Position numbers and translations under genes: made by a program. Below, in pieces: positions 725-43,965 of a stretch of DNA of 64,000 bases; the first letter of the stretch is position 1, and each line of letters opens with the position of its first letter. The notes under the pieces were generated by a model. The model did not search any database. It was not told where the DNA came from and saw only the letters and a program-made list of their open reading frames with translations. Source of the DNA: an uncultured virus (IMG/VR IMGVR_UViG_3300018494_004239) (taxonomy: Duplodnaviria; Heunggongvirae; Uroviricota; Caudoviricetes); the IMG/VR virus record IMGVR_UViG_3300018494_004239; one strand, given 5' to 3'.

Positions 725-1723
725 TTATTGGGTGATTGGAGTTACAACAGTTGATGTATAGGCATATCTTGTTTGACCATTTTCTTCATATTCATAAACT
801 AATCTAAAATATTTATTTATATTTTCATTTGATGTGCTATATGTGATGCTGAAGTTAACAACTTTTTTGTCGGGATTCTGTAACGAAGCAAAATCTCCTG
901 CATCAATTCTGTCTTTTAATAAGATTTTTGATGCGGCGGTATTGATATTGAGCGCTCCATGATTTTCGCTATGATATATAATATATATTTTGTCAAAATC
1001 AACATTTATGCCTTCCTCTTTTACAAGCACCATGTCATATTTTGTATAGTAAAGTCCATTTTCTTTTCCAATATAGGAATTTTCTATAATTGAAATATTT
1101 GGTATTTTAGTATCCGAAGATAAATCAATCCATTCATTTAGAGAAGTTTTTGTATGTGAATAATTGATATTGGAAGGTAATAAATCAGATAAAGTGGAAG
1201 TGTCGATATTCTTTTCTGCAACAAGTGTATAACCCGTTACAGTATTGTACCAATAAGTCATGTCGCTTTGCTTTGGTTCGAAAGTGGAAGAACTGGTCTT
1301 CATATAATTCTGCATAACTGCTTTTGCGGTTTCATGGTTTTGTGCATACTTATTATCAATATCGATGCGAATGCCGTTGAAACCTGCCAAACTTTCGAGT
1401 TTTTCAATATCAGCACGGGTTACTGCTTTGGTAACATTATATACTCTGCCTTGTGCGGCATCCATATTATCAGGAACTCCATCACCGTCTCCATCTTTGA
1501 TTGCACCAGATGCGATATCCTGCTTATATAATTCGTATTCGCTTACAAACCTTTCCATCGCATTCGTCATTTCACTGGCATTGGTGTTATCCGCAGATAC
1601 ATTTGCTCTGTCGATAAGTCCAGCAACGGAAGGAATAGCAATTGCCGCCAACACAGCAAGAATTCCGATTACCACAAGTAACTCGATAAGTGTAAAACCT
1701 TTTCGGGAAGTTAAAATTTTCAT
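725..1723 (-). CDS. Type IV pilin-like protein (copy 1), orphan C-terminal domain
   Basis: Class III signal RKG|FTLIELLVVIGILAVLAAIAIP; shared module through 'FEPKQSD..YWY'. Confidence 0.9.
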   Translation of the reverse strand: MKILTSRKGFTLIELLVVIGILAVLAAIAIPSVAGLIDRANVSADNTNASEMTNAMERFVSEYELYKQDIASGAIKDGDGDGVPDNMDAAQGRVYNVTKAVTRADIEKLESLAGFNGIRIDIDNKYAQNHETAKAVMQNYMKTSSSTFEPKQSDMTYWYNTVTGYTLVAEKNIDTSTLSDLLPSNINYSHTKTSLNEWIDLSSDTKIPNISIIENSYIGKENGLYYTKYDMVLVKEEGINVDFDKIYIIYHSENHGALNINTAASKILLKDRIDAGDFASLQNPDKKVVNFSITYSTSNENINKYFRLVYEYEENGQTRYAYTSTVVTPITQ

Positions 1724-1754
1724 AAAAAATCATCCTTTCATTTATGTTAAACAT

Positions 1755-1782
1755 AGCATAGATGATTTTTTTTTCTTGTCAA
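1755..1782 (-). promoter_or_regulatory. Pilin-1 promoter TTGACA-16 bp (contains A9)-TATGCT
   Basis: Read on the minus strand; RBS GAAAGGATGA downstream. Confidence 0.6.
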
Positions 1783-1804
1783 AGATATTTACAAATAATT
1801 ATTT

Positions 1805-2075
1805 TTCCGCCCACCCTTCTCCCCAAAACCCCCTCAAAAAGAAAAAACTCTTTCCCAACCCCCTTAAAAAAAGAAGAATTATTCTCCTTAAACTTCTTAA
1901 AAAGAAACACTGTTCTCCATAAACCCCTTTGGGGAAGAAAAACTATTTCCCCAAACCCCCTCAAAAAAGAAACACTGTTCTCCATAAAACCCTTTTGGGG
2001 AGAGACACTGTTCTCCACAAAATCCTTTGAAAAAGAAAAATTATTTTACTTAAACCACTTAAAAAAGAAACTTCT
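1805..2075. repeat. Degenerate tandem repeat, about 8 units of ~31-33 bp
   Basis: Recurring TTCTCC(A/C)..AAACCCC.T.AAAAAGAAACACTG; AAAAAGAAACACTGTTCTCCATAAA occurs twice. Confidence 0.75.
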
Positions 2076-2103
2076 TTTATCTTCCCAAAACGAAACTTTT
2101 ATG

Positions 2104-2132
2104 TTGACATTGCCAACTATTTATGGTATAAT
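2104..2132 (+). promoter_or_regulatory. Sigma-A promoter TTGACA-17-TATAAT with extended TG
   Basis: ttgacattgccaactatttatggtataat. Confidence 0.8.
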
Positions 2133-2216
2133 ATACTCACACTCCCCCAATACAATCCTGTAAAAGAATTCACTACATAACCATAATACACTATAAGAAA
2201 GAAGAGAGTATTAAAT

Positions 2217-2813
2217 ATGACAACAGACTATTATGGAACTCAAAAATATCTAATAACATTCTATAAAGGAGAATATCCTGATATAGACCCTAATGTAACA
2301 TATAGTGATGGGGAATTACTCAAAGAGGGACTAACGATGAAACCCATAGGAAATAATTCTTATATAGAGGATGAAACAAGACATTACTTTGGAATTCCCA
2401 TCAATGTAGTTACCCAAGATTATGACTATGATAAAATCCAAAGAGTTTGTGGATTTAAGAAACTTCCCCGAATTGAAACCGCTTCGAGAAAAGAGATTAC
2501 CTTTACCGACGGAAGAGATTCCTATACTATGGGTAAGCACGAAAGTGTTCATTTCCTCAAAAAGGAAAACAAGGATATGCTGGTTTTCCGAAAGAAGGAG
2601 ATTTGTAAGGTAAAACAGAAAAGTTATGAAATGTATTCTTTTCTTTGTTCTATCTTTAAGAAGGAAAGAGGTTTTACTCCTCTGCTTGGTAATACCTATG
2701 TGCTTTCCGATGTTTTGATTGATAAACTTGAAAGATATGAAAGAAAAACATGGTTGTCTCATTTGTTTGATGCAGAACACCCTAATATTTTCTTTACCGT
2801 AACCGATGCTTAA
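2217..2813 (+). CDS. Hypothetical protein, 'PDIDPN' paralog family
   Basis: 198 aa; aligns by eye with 36426..37049 and 40999..41574. Confidence 0.75.
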   Translation: MTTDYYGTQKYLITFYKGEYPDIDPNVTYSDGELLKEGLTMKPIGNNSYIEDETRHYFGIPINVVTQDYDYDKIQRVCGFKKLPRIETASRKEITFTDGRDSYTMGKHESVHFLKKENKDMLVFRKKEICKVKQKSYEMYSFLCSIFKKERGFTPLLGNTYVLSDVLIDKLERYERKTWLSHLFDAEHPNIFFTVTDA

Positions 2814-2828
2814 TAAGGAGGATTATAT

Positions 2829-3200
2829 ATGAATGTACTGGCGGCAATTACTATCGTTTTAGCAGCACCTTTAATTTGGGTATTTATTGTTTTTTCTACG
2901 AAGAAGAAATGGGTATCCATTCTTTGTTTCGTACTCGCTTTTTCTATCGTTGGAGGTTTTTGCTTCTATATTGAAGGGGCAAGAGATAACTTCGTAGAGG
3001 GCTCTAATATTGTTTGTACCTTTGATGGTGAAAAGGTATATGAAGATGATGGCGAATACTTTATTGTAGTTACCAATAAATATAATCCACTTAATATCTA
3101 TGAGCGACAGGTCGTTGACAAAGAGTTCGTTGATGAGTGGGTGTCTTTCTCGGATAAATATGGAGATACCATTACGAGTATTCAGAGCAATAATGAGTAA
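2829..3200 (+). CDS. Hypothetical membrane protein
   Basis: AGGAGG RBS; two N-terminal hydrophobic segments. Confidence 0.75.
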   Translation: MNVLAAITIVLAAPLIWVFIVFSTKKKWVSILCFVLAFSIVGGFCFYIEGARDNFVEGSNIVCTFDGEKVYEDDGEYFIVVTNKYNPLNIYERQVVDKEFVDEWVSFSDKYGDTITSIQSNNE

Positions 3201-3266
3201 TATCTTCTTATCTACTTCGGGTTAAAATGTAATTCTGAATAATATATGCTAAAATAAGACAGTGGG

Positions 3267-4076
3267 GTGAATGATATGTTTTTTATATTACAAGCGCAAG
3301 ACGATATGAAGTTGATGCAGGTTGATTATGCTATATTAAAGGAACTTCTTGAATATTCTCATTTTGACTATGCTGAAATGCGTTTAGCAGATTTTTATAA
3401 CGGTGATAAACAATTGAAAAAATCTACTGAATTTCCAAATGAATATAAAGATGCTATTCCGCTCGGCACTATCAATTTCGTTACTGCATATCTTAATATT
3501 TTCAAAAATATAGAGAAAATGAATCCAATAGAGATTCCCAAATGCTTACGGACGGATGAGTTTTTGAAAAGAAAATATAGTATAATGTACGGCAAAGATA
3601 TTCCAAAGGACAAAGCATATTTTATAAAAAATGTTTCTACCTTAAAAACATTTTCTTATACTGGTCGAATAGATGCTATTTACAATGAACCCGATGCACT
3701 GTCGCAAAAAAGACCTATTGAGGATGATGATTTGTATCAAGTTTCTGATATTTTGAATATTCGTTCTGAATATCGAGTTTACTTTATCGCTGGAGAGTTA
3801 TATGCTATTGCTTATTATGATGGTGATGCAACGGTTTTTCCCGATGTTAATTTGATACAAAAGGCAAACTTAATCTATTCTATGCAGAAAGATTATCCAA
3901 GAAGTTATACTATGGACGTTGCGGTTTCTGATAAGGGCACTGCAATTTTGGAATGCCATCCCCTATTTAGTTGCGGTATTTATCAGACAGTTTTGGGAGT
4001 AGACTTTCTCTATGGGTATCGTGACTCTATGTATTATCTTGAGCGATACAATACAAAACATGAAGCGGATACGTGA
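3267..4076 (+). CDS. ATP-grasp domain protein (DUF4343/R2K-like)
   Basis: 'FIKN', 'SEYRVYF', 'YTMDVAV..GTAILECH...CGIY'. Confidence 0.7.
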   Translation: MNDMFFILQAQDDMKLMQVDYAILKELLEYSHFDYAEMRLADFYNGDKQLKKSTEFPNEYKDAIPLGTINFVTAYLNIFKNIEKMNPIEIPKCLRTDEFLKRKYSIMYGKDIPKDKAYFIKNVSTLKTFSYTGRIDAIYNEPDALSQKRPIEDDDLYQVSDILNIRSEYRVYFIAGELYAIAYYDGDATVFPDVNLIQKANLIYSMQKDYPRSYTMDVAVSDKGTAILECHPLFSCGIYQTVLGVDFLYGYRDSMYYLERYNTKHEADT

Positions 4077-4087
4077 GGAATATAAAA

Positions 4088-4135
4088 ATAGCGGTCTTAT
4101 CTGCCTTTTAGGGCGGGTAAGACCGTTTTTCTTTT
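4088..4135 (+). terminator. Intrinsic terminator
   Basis: gcggtcttatctgcc/gggcgggtaagaccgt stem followed by T-run. Confidence 0.75.
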
Positions 4136-4308
4136 ATTGGGGATATTCGGTTATTGGTTATATATTGGATGTGTTATAGGGTGTTCTGTGGGGTTATGGA
4201 AGTATTGGGTATTTAATATTGTGTCGTTATTAGTATATTTAAGGCTGGTTAATGGAATGTAGTTAATAGTTTTCTTTTTTATGAGTCGTGAACAAAGGGA
4301 TTGGTGGG

Positions 4309-4404
4309 TGAACTATTTTAGTGGGTTATGGGAATAGGCGAGGGGATGTGAATTATTTTAGTGGGTTATGGGAATGGGGTTGGATGGTGGGGTGGGTGGG
4401 TAGG
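4309..4404 (+). repeat. G-rich tract with a 27-bp direct repeat and G-quadruplex-capable motif
   Basis: TGAA(C/T)TATTTTAGTGGGTTATGGGAAT twice, then GGGG-N9-GGGG-T-GGG-T-GGG. Confidence 0.75.
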
Positions 4405-4467
4405 TGATATTTTTCACGAGCATGCATAAAAAAATCGGGGAACTTTCGTTCCCCAGATTATATATGA

Positions 4468-5775
4468 TTAACTGATGACGAAGGCAGGGTAAACAGGACG
4501 ACTATCGTATGCATTGACATGGTATTCATCGCCACGACCATAACAGAAGAAATCCTCATAACAGCGAGAATAAGGCGAACGAAGCCAGAACCAATCGTCA
4601 ACATAACCGTCGTCGGCAAACCAATCAAATGTTTCGCCTTCTGCTTCAATTTCAGTTATATACTCGTACCAACCAGACATGTCGTCATTAAAACCAACCT
4701 CTTTGATGGAAGGTAAGAATAAATAACAAGTTACACACTTTGAGCTATTCAAATTATTATCACCATCGGCACATGTAATGGTTGTAGGACTAATTACTGC
4801 TCTTAAATTTGCATCGAGATTATTATATACTTCTCCATCCAACCATGTCTTCATTTCTGTATCTGTATAACCATTGATATTATCGCCCCAAGGATAATCT
4901 GTACTTGGTGCAGTCATTCTGTGGTTGCCAATGTTTGATGTAAGCATAAATGTAACTTTATCACTATCAATGTCAACAATCCGTGCTTGTCTTGTATTCC
5001 CGTTGATTGTAAAACTTGGAGTCAAATCCCCTGTTTTCCAACCTGCATCGGTAACTTTTCCTGCACGAATTACTGCTTGAATTGTTGTCCAGTCGTTATT
5101 GGCAAGAGTTGAATCAACGGTGGACATATCAAGAGAAGTGTCTCCACTTAACGTAGCACCAAGTGTAAGGTCAATCCACTGTGCATTTACACTGTCTGAT
5201 GTGATATCATTACCTTTTGCATCCATACCAGAGATAGCATACTTATCTAATTCAGCAGCAGTTTTTGTCGGTTCTGCAACTACAACAACACCACAATCTG
5301 GTGAATACCAATAGTGCACATCTGATTGCTTTGGTTCAAAGGTGGAACTGGAAGTTTTTGTATAGTTTTCTACAACTTTTTGCATAGTGTAAGCATTCAT
5401 AGGATATTTGGTGTCTCTATAAATTGCAATCACATCATCAGCAACTGTTGCATTTTGAGCGAACTCGATTCCTTCAATACCAGCACGAGTTGTCACATCA
5501 ATTACATTTTTAACTCTACCCTGTGCACTGTCTAAATTATCTGGGTCTAATGTACCAGAGGCAATGTCCTGACAGTAGAGTTCATACTCCGAAGCAAATC
5601 TTTCGAGTGCATTTGTCATCTCGTTGCTATTAGTTTTATCAGCAGATACATTTGCTCTGTCAATAAGTCCTGCAACTGAAGGAATTGCGATAGCGGCAAG
5701 AACTGCGAGAATGCCAATAACTACGAGTAATTCAATTAAAGTAAAACCCTTACGGGATTTAATATTTAGTTTCAT
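4468..5775 (-). CDS. Type IV pilin-like protein (copy 2) with DUF6273-like/C-lectin-type C-terminal domain; candidate DGR target
   Basis: Prepilin signal; C-terminus 'YLFLPSIKEV', 'WFWLRSP', 'VYPAFVI'. Confidence 0.85.
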   Translation of the reverse strand: MKLNIKSRKGFTLIELLVVIGILAVLAAIAIPSVAGLIDRANVSADKTNSNEMTNALERFASEYELYCQDIASGTLDPDNLDSAQGRVKNVIDVTTRAGIEGIEFAQNATVADDVIAIYRDTKYPMNAYTMQKVVENYTKTSSSTFEPKQSDVHYWYSPDCGVVVVAEPTKTAAELDKYAISGMDAKGNDITSDSVNAQWIDLTLGATLSGDTSLDMSTVDSTLANNDWTTIQAVIRAGKVTDAGWKTGDLTPSFTINGNTRQARIVDIDSDKVTFMLTSNIGNHRMTAPSTDYPWGDNINGYTDTEMKTWLDGEVYNNLDANLRAVISPTTITCADGDNNLNSSKCVTCYLFLPSIKEVGFNDDMSGWYEYITEIEAEGETFDWFADDGYVDDWFWLRSPYSRCYEDFFCYGRGDEYHVNAYDSRPVYPAFVIS

Positions 5776-6064
5776 AAGAAATCATCCTTTCACATATAGT
5801 ATATTTACTATACGTGATTTTTTTCTTGTCAATGAAAAATCTCTACGAACTTTTCGTGGAGATTTGTATTCACCGTCGTCTACTTCTTTGTTTTTTGTTA
5901 TTTAATGGTGTCTATTGCATAAGTTTAATTTTTGTGGGGTTTTGAAGTGGGAAGATAGATAATATTATAGGGATAAAAGGCAAAAATGTTTGAATTTTTG
6001 GGAAGTGCTATTGGGTAGTAGAAAACATAAAAAGGACATCGATATCGATGTCCTTTTTGGAAAA

Positions 6065-7435
6065 TTATTTGCAACCTGCATTGTGGACAACTACACCATT
6101 AACAATGTAATTGTGGAAATTTGCAACACCTAAATTGTAAGTGTTATAGTTATCTATTGCAGGTCTGGTTTCAATAGAAATTATTGTGACATTGTTGTTG
6201 TATCCGACCAAGGTGTCTCCAACTTCTAACATTGGTACAATTCCAACATCAGTAATTGTCTCAACCATTTCTGGTCTCAAAGATTTCCAGCCATCTGTGG
6301 TGAGGAGTGGATGATATGCTCTCATTCCGATTTGTGTACCATCAGAAAGATTTACATATACAAGGTCATCAGAATTGTGCTTGATAATGGTATTGGTTAC
6401 TGGTTGTGCAACAAATTCGCCAGTAGTTTCATTGAGTGACATTACCATATCACCAACAATAACATCTTCAATGTTCTTGGTTGTTCCATCTGCCATCAAA
6501 ACTTGTGAACCAGCATCAAAGCAACACCAATGGATTGGTTGATAATCTCTTCCATCAACTATAACATGGGTTCTTTCGACCCAATAAGAATCTGGCGCAC
6601 CACTTAAACTCCAAGAATCAGCGGATGTATGTTTTGGTGTATAAATTCTTATAGCATCATCATGCATAAAGTCAAAGTAAATTTCTGGTGTTGGAGTTGT
6701 TCTTTGATATTCTGGATGTTCATTCAACCATTCTTCCCAAGTTTGACCTTCTTTTGCTGTAAATCTATAACCAGCAAAACTAAAAGTTATTGTTTTTACC
6801 ATTGGTACTTGCGAGTCAGATGTTACATTACACCAATTTGCATAATTATCATCAAGTGCATTTCCTTTTGCATCCTTGCCAGAAACCACTAAATCATTAA
6901 GTTGTGCAATAGAGGCATTAGTATCAGCAACTACAACAATACCACAATCTGGATTGTACCAATAACTGCAATCTGATTGTTTTGGTTCAAATGTTGCGCT
7001 TGATGTTTTTGTATAATTTTGAATAATGGCTTCAAGTGTATATGTATTTAGTGGGTATTTAGTATCTCTACTAATTTTAGAATTTAAGTGTCCATTGCTT
7101 TCTAAATTAGTGATGTCTTCACGAGATACAGCACCAGTTACATTGAATACTCTACCTTGTGCACTATCTAAATCGCCATCTGGTTTGCCATCGCCATTTT
7201 CGTCTTTAATGACACCACTGGCAATATCCTGACAATAGAGTTCGTATTCGCTTGCGAATCTTTCGATTGCATTAGTATATTCATTAGCATTGGTATTGTC
7301 GGCAGAAACATTTGCTCTGTCAATCAAACCAGCAACACTTGGAATGGCAATTGCTGCGAGCACAGCAAGAATACCAATGACCACAAGTAGTTCAATTAGT
7401 GTGAAACCCTTACGGGATTTGTAATTAAATTTCAT
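6065..7435 (-). CDS. Type IV pilin-like protein (copy 3) with C-terminal Hint (intein-like) domain
   Basis: Prepilin signal; Hint 'CFDAGSQVLMADG..KNIEDVIVGDMV', 'HPLLT..GW', 'TYNLGVANFHNYIVNGVVVHN' (6080..6523). Confidence 0.9.
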   Translation of the reverse strand: MKFNYKSRKGFTLIELLVVIGILAVLAAIAIPSVAGLIDRANVSADNTNANEYTNAIERFASEYELYCQDIASGVIKDENGDGKPDGDLDSAQGRVFNVTGAVSREDITNLESNGHLNSKISRDTKYPLNTYTLEAIIQNYTKTSSATFEPKQSDCSYWYNPDCGIVVVADTNASIAQLNDLVVSGKDAKGNALDDNYANWCNVTSDSQVPMVKTITFSFAGYRFTAKEGQTWEEWLNEHPEYQRTTPTPEIYFDFMHDDAIRIYTPKHTSADSWSLSGAPDSYWVERTHVIVDGRDYQPIHWCCFDAGSQVLMADGTTKNIEDVIVGDMVMSLNETTGEFVAQPVTNTIIKHNSDDLVYVNLSDGTQIGMRAYHPLLTTDGWKSLRPEMVETITDVGIVPMLEVGDTLVGYNNNVTIISIETRPAIDNYNTYNLGVANFHNYIVNGVVVHNAGCK

Positions 7436-8196: not shown

Positions 8197-10653
8197 TTAT
8201 GAAAAGTTATCGCTCGACATAATAAATTCTCTTCTTGCTGGCACATCATTGCCCATAAGAATAGAAGTGATATTATTTGCTTCGATAGCATCTTCAATTT
8301 CAACTTTTTTGAGTTTTCTTGTTTCTGGATTCATCGTGGTTTCCCACAATTGTTTTGCATCCATTTCGCCTACGCTTTTATCCGATATTACTATCGGTGC
8401 TGACTATTTCTTGTCTCTGGCTGGTAACTAACTGCCTTCATAGACTCTACCTTTTCCAACTGTGTATCAATAACAGTTGTACTCTCCAACAACGGAGATA
8501 GTCGATACATGATTAAAGATTAAAAATCTTATTTCACACGAGACCATCCTCATTCACAACTATATGTTGTAGTAGGAATATCCCTCGTTAGCCACACATT
8601 GTGTGACCCCTCTGATAGAGGAAAAGTAGATAAGGGCCAGACTACTCGTACCCTTTGTACCGTTGTATATCAAAATTCTTATGTGTTTTTCTGTATTCTT
8701 CTAATTCTTTGTCGGAATACATATAAACTTCAGACTTTGATGTTTTTGCTCGATATAGCGGAGGCATCGCATTATAAACTTTACCAGCATAAATAAGTTC
8801 TGGCATAAATCTATAAAAAAATGTTAATAAAAGTGTTCTGATGTGCCCGCCGTCAATATCCGCGTCAGCCATGATTATGATTTTATCATAATTGAGTTTT
8901 GAAATATCAAAATCATTACCAAGACCAGTTGAAAAACCACAACCGAAAGCATTTATCATTGCCTTAATTTCGGCATTGTCTAAAATTTTTCCAATCGATT
9001 GTCTTTCAACATTAAGAATTTTACCTCGAATTGGGAGGATTGCTTGATATTTTCTGTTTCTTGCGGTTTTTGCTGAACCGCCTGCAGATTTCGTTACAAC
9101 CACAATTTCTTATGGAACTGACTATTTCTTCACTCCGACTTGTCAGGTCATCATCGTGTCCAACATTTCCCAGTGTGTATCAATAACACCAGTACTCTCC
9201 AACAACGGAGATAGTCGATACAGAGTTGTATTTTACAACTTCCACGAGATTAACTTCGCCTAACCTTGTTTTGACATTCAAGGATAACGGTCAGTCTTCC
9301 TCGTTAGCAAATACATTGTATTTACCCCTGTGATAGCAGGAAAGAAGGATAAGGGCAAATCTTTCTCTCACCCTCAACGATAAAGATTTCGCATTTTGAG
9401 GCATCATTGGATTCTTGTCTCGAAAGTTTTCCGTTGCCTTCAAATGAGAATTTCTTATCGGCAATATTTGTTTTGATTTTTTCTTCTTCTCGGCGTAATT
9501 TTGCCGATTTTTCAGCACTTGCAATAATTGTCTTCAATACATCAACATTTCTATCGAAGAAAACCTGCAGTTCTGTGTTTAATATGGATTGAATTATGTT
9601 TTTAGCATCCGTATTGTCTAACTTTGTTTTTGTTTGACCTTCGAAACGAGGTGCTGGGTGTTTGATAGAAAGAACACAAACCATACCATTTCTTGTGTCA
9701 TTGCCTGTGAAGTTCGGGTCTTTTTCCTTGAGAGAACCAATATCTCTCGCATATTGATTGAGAATACGGGCAAATCCTGCTTTGAAACCATCAATATGTG
9801 TTCCGCCTTCAACAGTGTTGATGTTGTTACAAAAACCAATTAGATTGTCTCCAAATTCATTAACATATTGAAAGGCACACTCAAAAATAATTCCATCTTT
9901 TTCACCGTTGATAAATGCAACGGGTGTGCTCTTTTCTTTATCTTTTGTTAACGATAAGACAAAACCTTTTAATCCATCTTCTTCGTGAAATACCTTTTCT
10001 GGTAAATCATCTCTATCATTTCTAAAAACGATTGTTAAGTTTGGATTTAGGAATGCTGTTTCGTGCAATCTTTGTTCAATAGATGATGCCTTGAATTTTG
10101 TAGTATCAAAAATTGTTTCATCTGGGTAAAAAGTAACTGTTGTTCCAGTTTCCTTCGTTTTTCCTTTTGTGGGGAGTGGTTCGTTTTTCTTTAATGGAAA
10201 AGCGGGTTTGCCAAAAGCATATTCGTCATAATGCACAAAACCATCTTTTTTGATAGTTACTATCATCTTTGAAGATAGTGCATTAACAACAGAAGAACCA
10301 ACACCGTGCAAACCACCAGATGTTTTGTAGTTTGAATTATCAAACTTACCGCCAGCATGGAGTGTGGTAAAGATAATTCTTTCTGCTGGATAACCTTTCG
10401 CATGAATATCTACTGGAATACCACGACCATTGTCCTCAATTGTTGCTGAACCGTCTTTGTTCAGGCTCACAATGATTTTGTCGCAATAACCAGAAAGGTG
10501 TTCATCAACGGAGTTATCCACAATTTCAAATATTAGATGGTTTAATCCTTTTACTGATGTAGAACCGATATACATACCTGGTCTTTTTCGTACAGGGTCT
10601 AAACCTTCCAATACGGTAATGCTATCTGCATTATATTGCTTCAAAATAATCAC
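8197..10653 (-). CDS. gyrB: Type IIA topoisomerase B subunit (GyrB/ParE-like), three exons: 10653-9370, 9091-8650, 8372-8197; 633 aa spliced
   Basis: [66 protein letters not shown]...LWETTMNP; exons sum to 1902 nt in frame. Confidence 0.92.
8373..8649 (-). ncRNA. Group I intron 2 of gyrB (277 nt, no ORF)
   Basis: 5' exon ends AAAGGGU and pairs with GCCCUU; intron ends in G; P7 elements AUCGACUA / AAGAAAUAGUC; removal restores YKGLGEM. Confidence 0.9.
9092..9369 (-). ncRNA. Group I intron 1 of gyrB (278 nt, no ORF)
   Basis: 5' exon ends GAGGGU and pairs with GCCCUU; IGS AGAUUU pairs with 3' exon AAAUCU; ends in G; same core as intron 2. Confidence 0.9.
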
Positions 10654-10746
10654 CGTCCTTTATTCTAAATTATAACATAAATTTTTCGTTTTGTCAAAAA
10701 TACAAAAAAGAAAAGTCCGAGAAAATCTCGGACTTAACTTATGTTT

Positions 10747-19977: not shown

Positions 19978-21539
19978 TATTTAAGTGTCAAAACATCCGT
20001 CTTTGACGGTGGATGCAGGCACAGCGGTCGCACTTGAAGTGCAAGACCGCATATCTTAAACAAACAGTAGAGCGGTAGCGGTGCTGTTTGTTTATTGGAT
20101 TCTATTGACATTTTCTTACTTTTTAAGTATAATTTATACATATAAAACTTATGAAAGGAGTGATAAAAATGTTTAAGAAAGGTTCTTTCAAAAGCAATGG
20201 AACGAATACTGTTAATATTAAATGCAGTATAGACATACCCGTTTCAAAATTAGAACTTCTCAATAAATATTTTGGTCACTCTCGTTTTATATATAACTGG
20301 GCAATTGATTTTAATACCGATAGGTACAAGAATAACTTGCAACAGTATAATTTTGTAAATTTGGCAAAAGAATTACCAAATTTAAAGAAAGTAAACCCAT
20401 TTCTTAAAGAAGCAGATGCTACTTGTTTACAACAAGCGTTGCAGGACTATTGGACCACAATGCAACACTTTTATCAAAAGAAATGCGGTTTACCAAAATA
20501 CCGCAGCAAACACAGTAACCAGAGTTTTCGTATAATGAATGTTACAAATGGCATTCGTTTTGATGGTAACAAAATTAAGTTGGGAAAATTTGGTTGGGTG
20601 AGAACCAAACCTAATCAAGCGATACCTAACGGCACTATTCAATCTGCGACTGTTAAAAAAACGAAATCTGGTAAAGTTTATGTAACTCTTACTATTCGTC
20701 GTGCAGATAGAATTGAACAGTTTGATAAAACTGGCAAAGAAGTAGGTATCGATATCGGAATTAGTCATTTCACTACATTTTCCGATGGAACAGTTATCGA
20801 AAAACCCAATTTTATCAAGCAAAACGAAAAGAAAAAGAGAAGACTCTATCGGCAACTCTCTAAAAAGCAAAAGGGTTCAAAAAATAGAGAGAAAGCAAAA
20901 CTAAAATTAGCAAAATTCTGTGGAAAAGATGCGAACTGTAGAGAAGATTTTCTTCATAAGTTATCTCTTGATATAGTAAGAGAATATGACTTAATTGCGG
21001 TAGAGCATCTTAATGTTAAGAAAATGCTAATGGACAATTCTTTGCCTTACAGTAAGGAATTGCATAAAAACATTGGCGAACTTGGTTGGTATTCATTTAT
21101 ATCTAAATTAAAATATAAATCTGAATGGTATGGTAAAACTTTCATACAGGTTGATACCTACTACCCAAGTTCACAAATCTGCAGTTGCTGTGGATACAAA
21201 AATGCAGAAGTAAAAAATCTCTCCGTTAGAAATTGGATATGTCCCAATTGCAATACTGCCCACGATAGAGATTTTAATGCTTCTGTCAACATATTGAACG
21301 AAGGCAAGAGATTGCTCACTGCCTAATTATATAAACAGTACCGTGGGACACACGGGAACTTACGTCTGTGGACATCGTGTAAGACCAGTTGAGTTATGCT
21401 CAATTGGCAGTGATGGAAGAAGCAGAAACCTTGTAATTCCACTTTAATGGTGGTTTCTATAAAAAATGAACAACCCGTGGTTAGACCGTTAGGGTTGTTC
21501 GTAATGGAAACTACCGCTTGAAGCGGTAGAGGATGTCAT
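19978..21539 (+). mobile_element. IS200/IS605-family non-autonomous element (tnpB only)
   Basis: Subterminal hairpins catccgtc..gacggtggatg and ctaccgcttgaagcggtag; inserted after TTAT, ends TCAT (boundary may shift 3 nt); removal restores the deoC frame. Confidence 0.85.
20169..21326 (+). CDS. tnpB: RNA-guided endonuclease TnpB
   Basis: 'FGHSRFIYN', RuvC GIDIG / IAVEHL / HDRDFNASVNI, zinc finger CSCC..CPNC. Confidence 0.93.
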   Translation: MFKKGSFKSNGTNTVNIKCSIDIPVSKLELLNKYFGHSRFIYNWAIDFNTDRYKNNLQQYNFVNLAKELPNLKKVNPFLKEADATCLQQALQDYWTTMQHFYQKKCGLPKYRSKHSNQSFRIMNVTNGIRFDGNKIKLGKFGWVRTKPNQAIPNGTIQSATVKKTKSGKVYVTLTIRRADRIEQFDKTGKEVGIDIGISHFTTFSDGTVIEKPNFIKQNEKKKRRLYRQLSKKQKGSKNREKAKLKLAKFCGKDANCREDFLHKLSLDIVREYDLIAVEHLNVKKMLMDNSLPYSKELHKNIGELGWYSFISKLKYKSEWYGKTFIQVDTYYPSSQICSCCGYKNAEVKNLSVRNWICPNCNTAHDRDFNASVNILNEGKRLLTA

Positions 21540-21989
21540 TATGTATCACAGGCAAAGGCACATCTTGAATGTAGTGATGTAAAAGTTTGCACTGTTGTTG
21601 GTTTTCCAAATTGGGATTGTTCTACTTTTGCAAAAGTTGCAGAAGAGATTAGAACAATCGTTGAAGCGATTGATGACCACAAAAGAGGTTGCGACATTGT
21701 AATTCTAAAAGTTATTGTCGAAACCTGTTGTCTCACGGAATGGCAGATTAAAAAGATGTGTCAGATTTGTGCGGAATGTGGTGCTGACTACATTAAGACA
21801 TCTACTGGTTTTGCAGAACACGGTGCAACACCAGAGGCAGTTTCTATTATGAAAGAAATGATTGATAGAAACAATTTTGACCTTAAAATTAAAGCATCGG
21901 GAGGTATTAGAACTCTTGTAGATGCTAAAAAATATATTGATATTGGTGCCGATAGAATCGGTGCGAGTAATCTATGCTAAAAGAAAGGG

Positions 21990-25845: not shown

Positions 25846-26463
25846 TTACCCTCCATTGTTACTTGTATATAGTATATAGTTTTCTGTTGGCATTTCATTT
25901 GTTAGTCCGTTTTCAACAGATGAAGTAATATTAATCCACATTCCCGTTAAATCATCTTCATCTCTTGTACTCATTAAAATTTCTTTTAATACATTTCTGT
26001 CTGTAATGCCTTTTTCTGCTTTTACAACGAGACCTGTATCTACATTGTAATAGTAATCAAAACCAAATTGAGATGGTGTTGTTAATTTTTTGTTTTCAAC
26101 TTGACAGTAATTAAATACGACTGCTGAAAAACTTTTTGCAGTTATTGGTAAAAAGTCTTTATCAAATGTCGCATTACATCTGTTATTGATTAGTTCTTCA
26201 TAATTCGTTTCTCCATCTGTTACCTGTCTTAATACTGCTTCAACTTTTGGCATATCATAAGTCGCAGACAAATAAGAGCGACCATCAATAGCGTAGTGAT
26301 TTATTGCGATTTCCATTGCTCTAATCTCTTGCATATCGCTTGATGCTCTTGCCTTTTCTATAATTCCAGCAACAGAAGGTACAGTTACGAATGCTAAAAC
26401 AGCAAGAATGCCGATAACTACTAATAGTTCGATAAGGGTAAAACCCTTTTTAGAAGTGAGCAT
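25846..26463 (-). CDS. Short, divergent type IV pilin-like protein (copy 4), no tip domain
   Basis: MLTSKKG|FTLIELLVVIGILAVLAFVTVPSVAG; first gene of the ABC operon. Confidence 0.85.
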   Translation of the reverse strand: MLTSKKGFTLIELLVVIGILAVLAFVTVPSVAGIIEKARASSDMQEIRAMEIAINHYAIDGRSYLSATYDMPKVEAVLRQVTDGETNYEELINNRCNATFDKDFLPITAKSFSAVVFNYCQVENKKLTTPSQFGFDYYYNVDTGLVVKAEKGITDRNVLKEILMSTRDEDDLTGMWINITSSVENGLTNEMPTENYILYTSNNGG

Positions 26464-26611
26464 TTCAAAAGCACCTCCATAAAAATTTTCTACAGTATAA
26501 CATATTTTTTTCACAAAATCAATACAAAAAGTAGTTGACATAGGCACTATTTTGTGATACAATAATGGAGGTAAAACCGAGCACACAAAAGATAAAGGAG
26601 ATTAAAATTTT

Positions 26612-34761: not shown

Positions 34762-36177
34762 TTATTGTGGGTTTTTTATAAATTCAATTCTTGGTGCACT
34801 ATTAGAGGTTATTTTCTCAACTTCTATGTCGTCGCCGTAAACAGTGATTTTTGAAGCACCGACATTCATAAACCAATCTGCATGAGAAACGAGATTGGTG
34901 CCTTTGCTAATTGTTATTGTTCCTTCAAGGTTTGAACAACCAACAAAAACTCCGTTTGCATCTTTAACAGATGATGGTATTACAAAATTTTCAAACCTCT
35001 TAACAGAAGAACATCCTTGGAATAAATAGTCAATAATTCTTGCACTTTGGGGGAGTTTAAAGTTATCTATGTTTGTTATGTTTTTACATTCTTTGAACAT
35101 TCCATACACATCAAAAACATTGTCTGGTATAATCAAATTATCAATGTTTGTTAAATTTGCACAACCTGCATAACAACCTCTCATTGATGATATTGGGACT
35201 TCATTAATGGATTCGATAACTGGTGAGTATGATGTTTTGTTTTTATCTATAGTTGTTACATACCATCTTGCCCACTTATAATAATAGTAATAATCTCCAT
35301 AGATATATACATCGCCTTCTTTAGGTGTATCTGGAAATACATAGACTCGTCTATCTACATCAGGAAAATTGTAACTATGGCCACAACTTAAAGCACTTAT
35401 GTATTTCCCATCCGCAAAGGTCCACTGACATGTCGGGCATATAACACATTCTTTAAGATAGATTGCATCATTTGGAACATTTTTGACTGGATTTAAGTCT
35501 GGGTCATTAGAACCATAATCAAGTTTTCCGTCATTTGCTCCATTTGTTAAATTTATCCAAATGGTAGCATTTTCTCCGTTATCTACAAGTGGTCTCCCCT
35601 TTGCATCAACACCAGAAGTTATCATTTTATTTTTGTCTGCGATAGAAGAGTTTGGTGATGCATAAATAACTACACCACAATCTGGACTATACCAATAATG
35701 CATATCTGATTGTTTTGGTTCAAAGGTTGAAGAAGATGTTTTTGTATAACTCTCAATAATTTTCTTTAGTGTATAAGCATTTGCGGGATATTTTGTGTCT
35801 CTATAAAGTTGAGGAATATTGTTGTTGATAGTTCCGTTATATGCTATTTCTGTTGTTTCTATACCATTTCTTGTTGTTATGCCAGTAACACTATAGACTC
35901 TGTTTTGTGTGGCATCCATATTATCTGGTTTGCCATCATTATTTGTATCTATTAATACACCAGATGCAATGTCCTGACAGTAGAGTTCGTACTCACTTGC
36001 AAACCTTTCAATAGCATTTGTATATTCATTGGTGTTAGTTTTGTCAGCAGATACATTCGCTCTATCGATAAGTCCAGCAACTGATGGGATTGCGATAGCG
36101 GCGAGGACTGCAAGGATACCTATAACTACAAGAAGTTCGATTAGTGTAAAACCTGCTTTTGATTTTAGTAGTTTCAT
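34762..36177 (-). CDS. Type IV pilin-like protein (copy 5) with BspA-like LRR C-terminus
   Basis: Prepilin signal KAG|FTLIEL; repeats 'F.GC.NL..I..F.IP.SV'. Confidence 0.88.
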   Translation of the reverse strand: MKLLKSKAGFTLIELLVVIGILAVLAAIAIPSVAGLIDRANVSADKTNTNEYTNAIERFASEYELYCQDIASGVLIDTNNDGKPDNMDATQNRVYSVTGITTRNGIETTEIAYNGTINNNIPQLYRDTKYPANAYTLKKIIESYTKTSSSTFEPKQSDMHYWYSPDCGVVIYASPNSSIADKNKMITSGVDAKGRPLVDNGENATIWINLTNGANDGKLDYGSNDPDLNPVKNVPNDAIYLKECVICPTCQWTFADGKYISALSCGHSYNFPDVDRRVYVFPDTPKEGDVYIYGDYYYYYKWARWYVTTIDKNKTSYSPVIESINEVPISSMRGCYAGCANLTNIDNLIIPDNVFDVYGMFKECKNITNIDNFKLPQSARIIDYLFQGCSSVKRFENFVIPSSVKDANGVFVGCSNLEGTITISKGTNLVSHADWFMNVGASKITVYGDDIEVEKITSNSAPRIEFIKNPQ

Positions 36178-41574: not shown

Positions 41575-41814
41575 AAACGAAAAAGCACCGATGGCAAATC
41601 GGTGCTTTTTTCTGATATATAGGAGTCTGGTCATTAACATGGCAAAAGAGCCAAAGGAGATGTGCGATGTTCAATCACAATTATATTGTATTGTGTTTCG
41701 TTGCGAAATTCAAGTAAAAAAATAGGGAGTTGATAAAAAATATTTTTCTTCAGATTGACTTTCTAATTGATTTGTGATATAATTATATCATTACAAAAGA
41801 AAGGAGAGATATCG

Positions 41815-42216
41815 TTGAAAACCAAAACTATGGGGCAAATATTTACACCGAAACATATTGTCAATAATATATTGGATATGGTAGGGTTTTGTGATGATAA
41901 TGTCGTAAAAATGAAGATTATGGAACCATCTTTTGGCGATGGTGCTTTCCTTTCTGAAATCATTCGCAGGATAGTGGAATATTGTAAGAATAATGATTAT
42001 AGCATTGTTAAAACAATGGATATTGTTACGGGCAATGTTCATGGTGTTGAAAAAGACAGTAAATATTACGGAATGGCAATAGACAATATTCGTAGAGTGC
42101 TTTTTCAATACGGTATTTCTTATGATGGTAGTTTCCCATACTTGGTAAATGCTGATACATTTGATGTTTATGAAAAATATATGGGCGAGTTTGACATAGT
42201 TTGTGGTAATCCGCCT
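41815..42216 (+). pseudogene. 5' half of an Eco57I/TaqI-like adenine methyltransferase split by the island
   Basis: 'GQIFTP', 'MEPSFGDGAFL', 'FDIVCGNPP', then homology stops. Confidence 0.88.
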
Positions 42217-42316
42217 TTATCAATAAATCTCTTGCTGTGTAAGAAAGATAGTTATATTAGTAATAATCCTTATAAACATTTACACGCTCATTGCGTTAAC
42301 GGAGGTGTTATTGTTT

Positions 42317-43747: not shown

Positions 43748-43773
43748 AAAGTGGTATGAGAAATCATACCACT

Positions 43774-43965
43774 TTATTTCTTTTTATTAAGTTGATTGAG
43801 AATATTTTGTTGTTCCTCATAAGAGCGAAGATATTGTTGAATTGCTTTTTCTACAACGAATGTTTTATTCGAACCTGTATTTTTACAATGTTCATCAAGA
43901 TTTTGCCAAATTGTAATCTCAACCTTACAATTAAGTGCTTTATAGTTTTTCTTCTGCCTTGCCAT
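43774..43965 (-). CDS. Small ribbon-helix-helix-type regulator
   Basis: 'ALNCKVE..IWQNLDEHC..TG.NKTFVVEKAIQQYL'. Confidence 0.6.
   Translation of the reverse strand: MARQKKNYKALNCKVEITIWQNLDEHCKNTGSNKTFVVEKAIQQYLRSYEEQQNILNQLNKKK

What the first reader, a model, noticed from the sequence alone, without database searches (positions are those of the whole stretch)
8197..10653. gyrB interrupted by two paralogous ORF-less group I introns
Seen: 278- and 277-nt inserts share GCCCTTATC, GCTAACGAGG, TGTATCGACTATCTCCGTTGTTGGAGAGTAC, TGTTATTGATACACA and AAGAAATAGTCAG. Both follow AGGGU, end in G, and have guide sequences adapted to their own 3' exon (AGAUUU/AAAUCU; GUCUG/UAGGC). Removal gives a contiguous 633-aa protein; exon 3 is absent from the ORF track. 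Established: bacterial and phage group I introns favour conserved motifs of DNA-metabolism genes. Inference: one intron family colonised two AGGGU sites of the same gene, by reverse splicing or a trans-acting endonuclease.
Basis: partly seen in the sequence, partly recalled or inferred. Interest (0 to 1): 0.8.

Follow-up and report, generated by a model that had tools for sequence, protein, structure and literature searches.

The report
Two self-splicing introns in gyrB-like gene
A gyrase-B-type DNA topoisomerase gene is cut into three pieces by two related, gene-less group I (self-splicing type) introns of a phage-style family; this is a clear example of a known kind of mobile element that standard RNA-family scans miss.

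Summary
On the minus strand, exon 1 (10653/10644-9370), a 278-nt insert (9369-9092), exon 2 (9091-8650), a 277-nt insert (8649-8373) and exon 3 (8372-8197) join into an uninterrupted 633-aa GyrB/ParE-type protein. An intron-1-less database allele reads exactly across junction 1, and junction 2 restores QRYKG|LGEM.

Both inserts are group I introns of the IA2 type. They have a U.G splice-site pair with the guide GCCCUU, P10 guides matched to each 3' exon, and a terminal G. P3, P4, P7, P7.1, P7.2, P8 and P9 are supported by covariation in 21-27 relatives. A model built from the family also finds the T4 nrdD and td introns.

Rfam misses them: 21.3 bits against a threshold of 50.

Each intron is closest to introns at its own site in other contigs (about 85%, against about 66% to each other). 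Those relatives carry GIY-YIG or HNH endonuclease genes, so these copies most likely lost theirs.

Introns in phage gyrB are already published, and this scan has met similar cases on other DNA. This is a new member of a known kind.

The parts
10669..10697 (-). Putative sigma-70 promoter: TTGACA (10697-10692), 17-nt spacer, TATAAT (10674-10669). The AAGGA ribosome-binding site is at 10660-10656.
   Evidence: Read directly from the sequence. Not tested with the promoter scanner.
9370..10653 (-). Exon 1 of the GyrB/ParE-type gene (ATPase and transducer domains). It ends ...IFIVEG with GGU. The start is GTG 10653 or, more likely, TTG 10644.
   Evidence: NCBIfam NF004189 profile positions 8-429. 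P0001 is identical at 424 of 425 residues.
9092..9369 (-). Intron 1: 278 nt, group I (IA2 type), no ORF. The exon-1 reading frame stops 15 codons into it.
   Evidence: (R1 122.4 bits).
9351..9362 (-). Intron 1 P10 guide AGAUUU (9362-9357) and internal guide GCCCUU (9356-9351). The internal guide pairs with exon GAGGGU, including the U.G pair at the splice site.
9120..9216 (-). Intron 1 catalytic 3' core. In order: P7 5' strand GACUAU, P7.1, AGUAC linker, P7.2 (loop UAUUGAUAC), GGAAA, P3 3' strand GUUGGA, P8, J8/7 AAGAA, P7 3' strand AUAGUC.
8650..9091 (-). Exon 2 (Toprim domain): KSAGGSAK...PIRGK...DADIDG...QRYKG, plus the first base of a Leu codon.
   Evidence: profile positions 432-578.
8373..8649 (-). 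Intron 2: 277 nt, group I (IA2 type), no ORF. There is an in-frame TAG 2 codons into it.
   Evidence: R1 135.5 bits; MFE z -3.40, reproduces P3, hairpin A, hairpin B, P4/P5, P6, P7.1, P7.2 and P9.
8632..8643 (-). Intron 2 P10 guide (A)GUCUG (8643-8638) and internal guide GCCCUU (8637-8632).
8591..8623 (-). Intron 2 hairpins A (8623-8608) and B (8607-8591). They lie between the P3 5' strand (8630-8625) and J3/4 UAA (8590-8588). The matching elements in intron 1 are at 9342-9307.
   Evidence: hairpin B 98.6% paired, 4 of 6 pairs covary; absent from the T4 nrdD intron.
8402..8503 (-). Intron 2 catalytic 3' core. In order: P7 5' strand, P7.1, AGUAC linker, P7.2, GGAAA, P3 3' strand GGUAGA, P8, J8/7, P7 3' strand.
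8197..8372 (-). Exon 3: (L)[20 protein letters not shown]... through the TAA stop at 8199-8197.
   Evidence: profile positions 580-631.

Best explanation
The gene encodes a type IIA topoisomerase B subunit (GyrB/ParE family). Two group I introns of the IA2 type interrupt its coding sequence, one inside the EG(D/K)SAGG Toprim motif and one inside QRYKG|LGEM.

After transcription each intron should fold into the standard ribozyme:
- P1 forms between the exon end (G/A)AGGGU and the guide GCCCUU.
- The P3/P7 pseudoknot carries P4-P6, P7.1, P7.2 and P8.
- P9 ends in a GNRA loop.
- P10 aligns the 3' exon.

The intron would then excise itself by the two guanosine-initiated transesterifications, giving an mRNA for a 630/633-aa protein. 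That step is inferred, not shown.

Neither copy has an endonuclease gene, so neither can home on its own. Each is the ORF-less form of a site-specific lineage whose other members carry GIY-YIG or HNH endonuclease genes in the P6 loop. The introns therefore most likely arrived by endonuclease-driven homing or recombination and later lost the ORF. The alternative is that they are compact forms mobilised in trans.

The replicon looks like a bacterial (Bacillota-type) chromosome from an animal gut rather than a recognisable phage. That point is uncertain.
For: **Exon structure**
- The spliced product has no internal stop.
- The exons map end to end on the GyrB profile NF004189 at positions 8-429, 432-578 and 580-631. 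The summed score is 782 bits against a cut-off of 740.
- Database protein P0001 is identical at 424 of 425 exon-1 residues and reads straight through junction 1 as ...[13 protein letters not shown].
- A DNA contig in run X13 joins 9091 to 9374 without the intron (table 5c).
- P0003 is intronless and 637 aa.

**Ribozyme**
- P1 has 6-7 contiguous pairs with the U.G pair at the splice site. The guide covaries with the exon: exon AAGGAU with guide GUCCUU in L013, and exon AGGCU with guide GGCCU in L131.
- P10 follows synonymous exon changes: AGAUUU/AAAUCU here, GACUU/AAGUC in L006A, AGAAUU/AAUUCU in L009.
- All 15 introns with mapped ends finish in G.
- 3' half, 27 sequences: 92.7% of cells paired, against 66.7% in shuffles (0 of 500 reach the observed value) and 33-43% when partners are slid. 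P7.1 has 4 of 4 pairs with changes on both sides, P7.2 6 of 6, P8 4 of 4 and P9 6 of 6. P7 has one U-A to C-G swap in 3 sequences.
- 5' half, 23 sequences: hairpin B is 98.6% paired and P4 is 100% paired, with A-U changed to G-C in 4 sequences.
- P3, 21 sequences at fixed columns: 85.7% paired against 57.8% shuffled (0 of 2000).
- P7.1 and P7.2 are joined by A-GUA-C. A passage of PMC3428280 gives the G-U-A link as the IA2 hallmark.
- Model R1, built from the family, finds the T4 nrdD intron (42.8 bits, E 3e-9) and the T4 td intron (33.9 bits, E 8e-7).

**Lineages and mobility**
- Identity clusters by insertion site.
- Relatives carry endonuclease ORFs: GIY-YIG in 4 and HNH in 1 of the 7 intron ORFs scanned.
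- The same family occupies two places in one locus on three other contigs: L005/L006, L009 and L170.
Against: - No RNA evidence exists.
- Rfam RF00028 gives only 21.3 bits for intron 1, against a gathering score of 50, and nothing for intron 2.
- Intron 1 has two U.U mismatches in the middle of P3 (4 of 7 cells paired). Its unconstrained MFE is not better than shuffles (z -1.17).
- Part of the covariation set was chosen with structure-dependent criteria. The IMG/VR members had to show at least 5 of 6 P7.2 pairs plus the R and S motifs. The P and Q elements were located by pattern. This inflates P7.2 and the invariant parts of P7 and P4.
- All metagenome members share an invariant 25-mer because they were found with it.
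- No endonuclease homologue is present in the 64-kb window (best tblastn E 0.27), so present-day mobility is unsupported.
Confidence: 0.88

Rival explanations
1. The inserts are decayed, splicing-dead intron relics, and the gene is a pseudogene in this strain.
For: - Intron 1 P3 carries tandem U.U mismatches.
- No endonuclease ORF is present.
- No adjacent A-subunit gene is found in the window, whereas intronless relatives have one directly downstream.
- No RNA data are available.
Against: - All three exons are intact and in frame, with every Toprim motif present.
- Exon 1 is identical at 424 of 425 residues to an intron-less allele.
- Every other helix in both introns is intact.
- L006A has the same P3 mismatches together with a full-length GIY-YIG ORF.
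- The gene keeps a strong promoter-like sequence.
- Near-identical copies occur in runs from at least 6 studies.
Confidence: 0.06
2. The two introns arose by a recent jump within this genome, from one AGGGU site to the other. The route could be reverse splicing or relaxed endonuclease specificity. This is the strong form of the first reader's inference.
For: - Both sites end in AGGGU and both introns use the same guide GCCCUUA.
- The 30 nt of the P7/P7.1 block are identical in both.
- A passage of the review PMC3984707 cites related introns at two places in one gene as the main circumstantial evidence for reverse splicing.
Against: - Each intron is about 85% identical to an intron at its own site on another contig, but only about 66% identical to its neighbour.
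- The identical 25-30-mer is also identical in all 14 metagenome loci and so dates nothing. Those loci were found with that very 25-mer.
- The contig behind L005/L006 has both sites filled by ORF-carrying versions.
Confidence: 0.05
3. The inserts are removed or skipped by some other route: inteins, a group II intron, or T4 gene-60-style translational bypassing.
For: - T4 topoisomerase gene 60 has a 50-nt translational bypass (recalled, not checked here).
- Inteins occur in gyrase genes. A gyrA intein is described in a passage of Korn et al..
Against: - In-frame stops lie 15 and 2 codons into the inserts, so they cannot be translated as inteins.
- At 277-278 nt they are far too small for a group II intron and have no reverse transcriptase.
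- The full group I helix set is supported by covariation, and the family model finds T4 group I introns.
Confidence: 0.01

Closest known systems
Phage T4 nrdD (sunY) and td group IA introns
   Same: - The core elements come in the same order: CGACUAU (P7 5' strand), P7.1, A-GUA, P7.2, (G)GAAA, P3 3' strand, P8, AAGA(U/A)AUAGUC. This was read directly in the T4 nrdD intron.
- The family model R1 scores them 42.8 and 33.9 bits.
- There is no P2 before P3 in nrdD.
- The T4 introns carry GIY-YIG endonucleases (I-TevI, I-TevII), as relatives of the window introns do.
   Different: - The window copies have no ORF.
- In this family the ORF, where present, sits in P6. In nrdD it lies 3' of the core.
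- This family has two extra hairpins between the P3 5' strand and J3/4, where nrdD goes straight from UCUGCC to UAAA and P4.
- The host gene differs.
- The T4 nrdB intron was not found by R1.
[quoted passage not shown]
   Same: The host gene type is the same, and so is the idea that topoisomerase genes are a common target of mobile introns and inteins.
   Different: - Their introns were inferred from protein alignment. Table 4 is an image that I could not read, so sites and intron class could not be compared, and I had no accession with which to run R1.
- Those hosts are recognised jumbo phages, whereas this replicon looks bacterial.
- The AR9 gyrB homologue that I checked is uninterrupted: one 774-aa open frame.
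Staphylococcus phage Twort orf142, with three group I introns in one gene (Landthaler and Shub 1999; recalled, and named in earlier scan notes)
   Same: Several related ORF-less or ORF-bearing IA2-type introns lie in one conserved gene. R1 gives matches of 33.5 and 32.4 bits in the Twort genome.
   Different: The host gene differs. I could not confirm that the R1 matches are the published introns, because the record annotates only ORFs.
Group I introns in bacterial protein-coding genes: Bacillus recA, nrdE, nrdF, flagellin, and cyanobacterial nrdE (review PMC3984707, passages; PMC2248736, abstract in search listing)
   Same: If the replicon is bacterial, this is the same situation: a phage-type IA intron in a conserved DNA-metabolism gene of a Bacillota chromosome.
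   Different: The host gene is a topoisomerase. The review text contains neither 'gyr' nor 'topoisomerase' (0 occurrences). Two introns lie in one gene.

Membership tests
Group I intron | The 5' splice site follows a U that forms a U.G wobble pair with the internal guide in P1. | tested here: met
   Exon ...GAGGGU and ...AAGGGU pair with guide GCCCUU(A), giving 7 and 6 contiguous pairs. The guide covaries with the exon in L013 and L131.
Group I intron | The last intron nucleotide is G (omega-G). | tested here: met
   Both window introns and all 15 of 15 family introns with mapped ends finish in G.
Group I intron | Conserved core: P3/P7 pseudoknot, P4-P6, P8 and J8/7. | tested here: met
   Pair counts with shuffle and slide controls support the core. 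J8/7 is AAGAA followed by AUAGUC. P6 covaries by eye (GUUGU/ACAAC against AAGAU/AUCUU) but was not counted with a tool.
Group I intron | P10 pairing between the guide region and the 3' exon. | tested here: met
   6 and 5 contiguous pairs in the window introns. 9 of 15 family introns have at least 4 pairs; 5 have only 1.
Group I intron | GTP-dependent self-splicing. | not testable with these tools
   No RNA run holding the stretch was listed. A wet assay is needed.
Rfam RF00028 Intron_gpI | Score at or above the gathering threshold of 50 bits. | tested here: not met
   Intron 1 scores 21.3 bits (E 0.0086) and intron 2 has no match. Of the eight family loci given to Rfam, only L003 gave a gathering-level match, and that match is a second, different intron in the same gene (88.6 bits). 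The model is therefore blind to this family.
Subgroup IA2 | P7.1 and P7.2 hairpins lie between the P7 5' strand and the P3 3' strand and are linked by G-U-A. | tested here: met
   P7.1 is 98.1% paired and P7.2 is 98.8% paired. The linker is A-GUA-C. The criterion is quoted from a passage of PMC3428280.
Subgroup IA2 | Extended domain 9 (P9.0, P9.1, P9.2), listed as an IA2 feature in a passage of PMC4227781. | tested here: not met
   There is a single P9 hairpin with a GNRA loop, followed by a 7-9-nt tail.
Mobile group I intron with homing endonuclease | An intron-encoded endonuclease ORF. | tested here: not met
   The P6 loops are 5 nt long, and no endonuclease homologue is in the window. Relatives carry GIY-YIG or HNH ORFs.
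GyrB/ParE type IIA topoisomerase B subunit | A full-length match to curated family models. | tested here: inconclusive
   Summed exon scores are: NF004189 (GyrB subfamily) 782 against 740; TIGR01059 gyrB 747 against 882; parE_Gpos 683 against 900. The family is certain, but the assignment to gyrB or parE is open.
Intein | An in-frame insert with a Hint domain. | tested here: not met
   Stops lie 15 and 2 codons into the inserts.

The most novel reading that the evidence does not exclude
These introns may represent a distinct IA2 sub-architecture. It has no P2 and has two conserved hairpins nested inside P3, between the P3 5' strand and J3/4; hairpin A has a conserved AUCA loop. The architecture is invisible to Rfam and recurs mainly in type IIA topoisomerase B-subunit genes, besides other genes. 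Here it sits in a bacterial chromosome rather than a phage. If so, a Bacillota cell would depend on two RNA self-splicing events to make a topoisomerase subunit. That would be the first bacterial topoisomerase gene on the short list of intron-bearing bacterial protein genes.
Probability: 0.3. Interest if true: 0.55.

Novelty: new member of a known kind. Interest (0 to 1): 0.35.

Why it matters
**Annotation.** Gene finders call this gene as a 443-aa and a 153-aa fragment, and the public protein collection holds many such truncated entries ending ...[18 protein letters not shown]. Rfam's threshold does not flag the cause.

**A tool for re-annotation.** A family-specific model such as R1 finds these introns at 85-135 bits. 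It could be used to re-annotate split topoisomerase genes, and other split genes, in gut metagenomes.

**Biology.** The locus is one state of an intron hot spot with at least four insertion sites (EG|, PIRGK|, DAD|, RYKG|). Occupancy differs between near-identical alleles, which makes it a natural system for studying intron gain, endonuclease loss and co-conversion.

If the host is a bacterium, it also widens the set of bacterial protein-coding genes known to carry group I introns.

Tried and rejected
- **Rfam.** Gathering mode on the whole window gave 0 matches. E-value mode on the whole window gave no intron match.
- **Known phages.** blastn of intron 1 against 50,697 phage records found nothing. 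Megablast of window 10700-35000 and tblastn of the 760-aa neighbour against phages also found nothing.
- **Pattern GGGGT-N(8-38)-GCTAACGAG in IMG/VR.** It was unspecific: the first 25 loci I read were ordinary coding sequence. Of 120 matches, 26 had a CTCGT within 150 nt and 14 had both R-like and S-like motifs. I dropped this set.
- **Free search for the best P3 partner.** It did not discriminate: own mean 6.44 against cross mean 6.05. I replaced it with the fixed-column test.
- **Full-length covariance model.** Not attempted. The alignment has 351 columns and would exceed the calibration limit, so only the 3' half was modelled (R1).
- **More copies in the replicon.** R1 with filters off finds only the two introns. 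The next match scores 18.2 bits at 43653-43794, lacks P7 and is a chance match. The rest of the genome is not held.
- **Relatives in bacterial genomes.**
  - R1 found 0 of 80 GTDB gyrB-homologue loci.
  - It found 0 of 151 genomes in the order of G003. That search scored only 20 candidates per genome, so it is weak.
- **Relatives of the protein in IMG/VR.** Only 36-38% identity.
- **Expression.** No RNA holder listed.
- **Trans-acting endonuclease in the window.** None found; best E 0.27.
- **Twort record.** The annotation does not mark introns.
- **AR9.** The gyrB homologue is uninterrupted.
- **Literature.**
  - 'group I intron' + gyrB + phage returned 11 papers; none is about gyrB introns by title or abstract.
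  - 'P3.1' + 'group I intron' returned 3 papers, none relevant by title.
- **Host identity.** RecA is at most 66-71% identical to genomes of the family of G005. No close relative was found.
Full report
**1. The observation**

The gene lies on the minus strand. Exon 1 ends at 9370 with ...GUU GAG GGU. A 278-nt insert follows (9369-9092). Exon 2 runs from 9091 to 8650 and ends ...AAA GGG U. A 277-nt insert follows (8649-8373). Exon 3 runs from 8372 to the TAA at 8199-8197.

Joining the three exons gives 1902 nt and a 633-aa product with no internal stop. The two inserts share long identical blocks. The 30-mer around GACUAUCUCCGUUGUUGGAGAGUAC occurs exactly twice in 64 kb, against 0.00 expected, and AAGAAAUAGUCAG occurs twice against 0.16 expected. 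Overall they are identical at 200 of 300 aligned columns.

The exon-1 frame runs 15 codons into intron 1 before a stop. The exon-2 frame runs 2 codons into intron 2.

**2. The exons make one ordinary GyrB/ParE-type protein**

The three exons match the NCBIfam GyrB subfamily profile NF004189 at positions 8-429, 432-578 and 580-631 of 641, so they are contiguous on the profile. The summed score is about 782 bits against a cut-off of 740. The gyrB and parE equivalog cut-offs are not reached by simple sums.

Junction 2 restores the canonical QRYKG|LGEM. Junction 1 gives VEG|KSAGGSA. The Lys looks odd against the usual EGDSAGG, but it is the clade's normal residue:
- The intronless 637-aa relative P0003 (85% identical) has it.
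- The 70%-identical genes in six Clostridia-type MAG loci have it.
- P0001 is identical at 424 of 425 exon-1 residues and reads straight through the site as ...[33 protein letters not shown].

A contig of run X13 also joins 9091 to 9374 at the DNA level. It has four other letters in between and reads GAA GGA | AAA UCU, which is still V-E-G-K-S (table 5c).

**3. The inserts are group I introns**

Rfam does not say so. There are 0 matches at gathering score. With relaxed filters, intron 1 scores 21.3 bits (threshold 50) and intron 2 scores nothing. I therefore collected relatives:
- The invariant 25-mer found 1 IMG/VR contig and 14 metagenome loci on 13 contigs.
- The P7.2 loop motif found 118 IMG/VR loci from 7 of 64 parts of the collection. 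Of these, 20 are family members by my criteria, and the same 20 are found by model R1.

Anatomy of intron 2, with coordinates:
- a 12-nt leader holding the P10 guide
- guide GCCCUU (P1)
- A
- P3 5' strand UCUACU
- hairpin A
- hairpin B
- J3/4 UAA
- P4 ACGAG/CUCGU, enclosing P5
- P6 hairpin
- J6/7
- P7 5' strand GACUAU
- P7.1 CUCC-GUUGUU-GGAG
- A-GUA-C linker
- P7.2 with loop UAUUGAUAC
- GGAAA
- P3 3' strand GGUAGA
- P8
- J8/7 AAGAA
- P7 3' strand AUAGUC
- P9 with a GNRA loop
- a short tail ending in G

Tests of the structure:
- **3' half (27 sequences).** 92.7% of 696 cells are paired, against 66.7% in shuffles (0 of 500 reach the observed value) and 33-43% when partners are slid. Pairs with changes on both sides number 4 of 4 in P7.1, 6 of 6 in P7.2, 4 of 4 in P8 and 6 of 6 in P9. 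P7 shows U-A changed to C-G in 3 sequences.
- **5' half (23 sequences).** Hairpin B is 98.6% paired with 4 of 6 pairs covarying. P4 is 100% paired, with A-U changed to G-C in 4 sequences. The inner pairs of hairpin A are misaligned by MAFFT and score poorly (70.4%).
- **P3 (21 sequences present in both alignments).** 85.7% of 147 cells are paired against 57.8% for shuffled partners (0 of 2000). The first three pairs each occur as three different Watson-Crick types.
- **P1.** 5-7 contiguous pairs in 14 of 15 introns. The automatic guide search mis-placed L125.
- **P1 covariation.** The guide covaries with the exon: AAGGAU/GUCCUU in L013 and AGGCU/GGCCU in L131.
- **P10.** It tracks even synonymous differences in the 3' exon: AGAUUU/AAAUCU here, GACUU/AAGUC in L006A, AGAAUU/AAUUCU in L009.
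- **Terminal G.** All 15 introns end in G.
- **Folding.** The unconstrained fold of intron 2 (z -3.40, 0 of 200 shuffles as good) independently reproduces P3, hairpin A, hairpin B, P4/P5, P6, P7.1, P7.2 and P9. The fold of intron 1 does not stand out (z -1.17).

Caveats:
- The IMG/VR members were kept only if at least 5 of 6 P7.2 pairs formed and the R and S motifs were present.
- The P and Q elements were located by pattern.
- The metagenome members all share the 25-mer they were found with.
- As a result, P7.2 and the invariant columns are partly pre-selected. P7.1, P8, P9, P3, hairpin B and the P1/P10 exon matches were not selected for.

**4. Subgroup and a positive control**

A passage of Kong et al. 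(PMC3428280) gives the assignment rule for IA2: P7.1 and P7.2 linked by G-U-A. That intron also lacks P2. Both points hold here.

Model R1, built from the family's 3' half, was run on three complete phage genomes. It found the T4 nrdD intron (42.8 bits) and the T4 td intron (33.9 bits). The record's annotation identifies these as the introns that hold I-TevII and I-TevI. The third T4 match (13.6 bits, in alt) is noise, and the nrdB intron was missed.

Read directly, the T4 nrdD intron shows the same order of elements: CGACUAU, P7.1, AGUA, P7.2, GAAA, CGGCAGA (P3 3' strand), P8, AAGAUAUAGUC.

One difference stands out. In nrdD the P3 5' strand UCUGCC is followed at once by UAAA and P4. In this family two hairpins (A, with a conserved AUCA loop, and B, closed by G-C and U.G) sit between the P3 5' strand and J3/4, so they are nested inside P3. 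I found no name for this arrangement in the texts I searched. I cannot say that it is undescribed.

**5. How the introns got there**

The ribozyme cores group by insertion site:
- Intron 1 is closest to other EG|-site introns: L006A 85.8%, L186 70.4%, L009 68.9%.
- Intron 2 is closest to RYKG|-site introns: L005B 85.0%, L170 70.8%. By eye L008 differs from it at only a few positions.
- The two window introns are 65.6% identical to each other in the same alignment.

Relatives carry ORFs in the P6 loop:
- GIY-YIG in L006A, L013 and L015.
- A truncated GIY-YIG in L007.
- HNH in L009.
- A 65-aa fragment with a GIY-YIG-like start in L001, which had no Pfam match.
- In L005B, a membrane-anchored Phage_lysozyme2 domain instead of an endonuclease.

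The contig behind L005/L006 has both sites filled by ORF-carrying versions. L009 and L170 each hold a second family copy about 1.2-1.4 kb from the first.

Truncated database proteins show further insertion points after PIRGK and after DAD. P0001 combines an empty site 1, an occupied DAD site, and exon-2 differences that begin only at residue 454. That is the mosaic pattern expected from homing and recombination.

The simplest reading is this: two site-specific intron lineages spread by their endonucleases, and here both are present as compact forms without an endonuclease gene. Whether the first move between the two AGGGU sites used reverse splicing cannot be decided from these data.

**6. Which replicon**

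No whole genome is held for the window.

Points in favour of a bacterial chromosome:
- The window encodes RecA (537 bits to the equivalog), Ung, CoaE and YqeY.
- It also encodes an ABC transporter and a DeoC fragment beside TnpB.
- It carries seven prepilin-type ORFs, restriction-modification genes and three tandem tyrosine recombinases.
- It has no tRNA and no recognisable phage structural gene.
- The closest GyrB relatives (70%) and RecA relatives (60-66%) are in 1.4-2.4-Mb Clostridia-type MAGs. In the six closest loci the gene is intact and followed by a ParC/GyrA-like gene.
- IMG/VR has nothing closer than 38%, and known phages show no similarity to the flanks.
- The DNA occurs in animal faecal and bovine gut metagenomes from 15 studies. 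Six runs hold nearly all of it, and three of those are flagged as possible sources.

I therefore lean towards a bacterial chromosome with islands. A large unrecognised mobile element is not excluded.

Points that leave the question open:
- No A subunit is in the window.
- 0 of 80 bacterial homologue loci carry the intron family.

**7. Comparison with what is known**

Group I introns in phage DNA-metabolism genes are textbook (review PMC3984707, passages). [quoted passage not shown] (passages). Their Table 4 is an image that I could not read.

This scan has already reported gyrB-like genes with one to four group I introns on other DNA. The AR9 gyrB homologue is uninterrupted in the record I checked.

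For bacteria, the review lists only flagellin, recA and nrdE as protein-coding hosts. It contains neither 'gyr' nor 'topoisomerase'.

**Verdict.** The finding is real and correctly interpreted, and it is a new member of a known kind. Its modest extra interest comes from three things: a probable bacterial host, the P3-nested hairpins, and Rfam's blindness to the family.

Noticed in passing
L005:1593-2306 (-), contig JAEIGA010036745.1: The ORF in the P6 loop of the RYKG|-site intron encodes an N-terminal hydrophobic segment plus a Phage_lysozyme2 domain (PF18013, E 3.4e-31), not a homing endonuclease. This looks like a group I intron carrying a cargo gene.
   Followed up: partly
L003:2151-2382 (-), and the matching stretch of L012: A second group I intron that Rfam does recognise (RF00028, 88.6 bits) lies upstream in the same topoisomerase gene that also holds a family member at RYKG|. 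R1 gives it only 29-33 bits, so it belongs to a different lineage.
   Followed up: partly
Proteins P0001, P0024, P0039, P0045, P0071, P0082, P0067: Truncated database proteins end in non-homologous tails after PIRGK, after DAD, or after EG with a different tail. This implies at least four intron insertion sites in this gene clade. P0001 has an empty site 1 but an insert after DAD.
   Followed up: partly
window 9307-9342 and 8591-8623: Two conserved hairpins lie between the P3 5' strand and J3/4, so they are nested inside P3. They are absent from the T4 nrdD intron. Hairpin A has a nearly invariant AUCA loop. UUUCC at its base could alternatively pair with the invariant GGAAA that precedes the P3 3' strand.
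   Followed up: partly
window 9171-9191 / 8458-8478 and 9217-9223 / 8504-8510: The invariant 9-nt P7.2 loop UAUUGAUAC is complementary to GUAUC in J6/7. J6/7 varies (GUACA, GUAAC, GUAGA) while the loop was fixed by my search pattern, so a tertiary pairing could not be tested.
   Followed up: no
window 8480-8508 and 9193-9221: Contigs from all four laid runs break exactly at the 29-30-nt core that is identical in both introns. The twin introns therefore fragment short-read assemblies of this gene (table 8).
   Followed up: no
window 9088-9090 (Lys codon after junction 1): The Toprim motif reads EGKSAGG instead of EGDSAGG in this whole clade (P0003, P0010, loci L016-L021). More distant Lachnospiraceae homologues keep Asp.
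   Followed up: no
window 47813-53735: Three tandem tyrosine-recombinase genes (452, 730 and 623 aa) sit next to a DUF6262 gene. They are flanked by methyltransferase fragments (41767-43747, 54013-54996). This is probably an inserted element that split a restriction-modification gene.
   Followed up: no
window 725-7435, 25846-26586, 34762-36177, 57147-58346: Seven ORFs begin with a prepilin-type N-methylation motif. One (6065-7435) ends in a PT-HINT/intein-like domain and one (4468-5775) ends in DUF6273.
   Followed up: no
window 20151-21980: A TnpB (OrfB_IS605/Cas12f-like) gene lies beside a 74-aa DeoC C-terminal fragment, which suggests an IS insertion into deoC.
   Followed up: no
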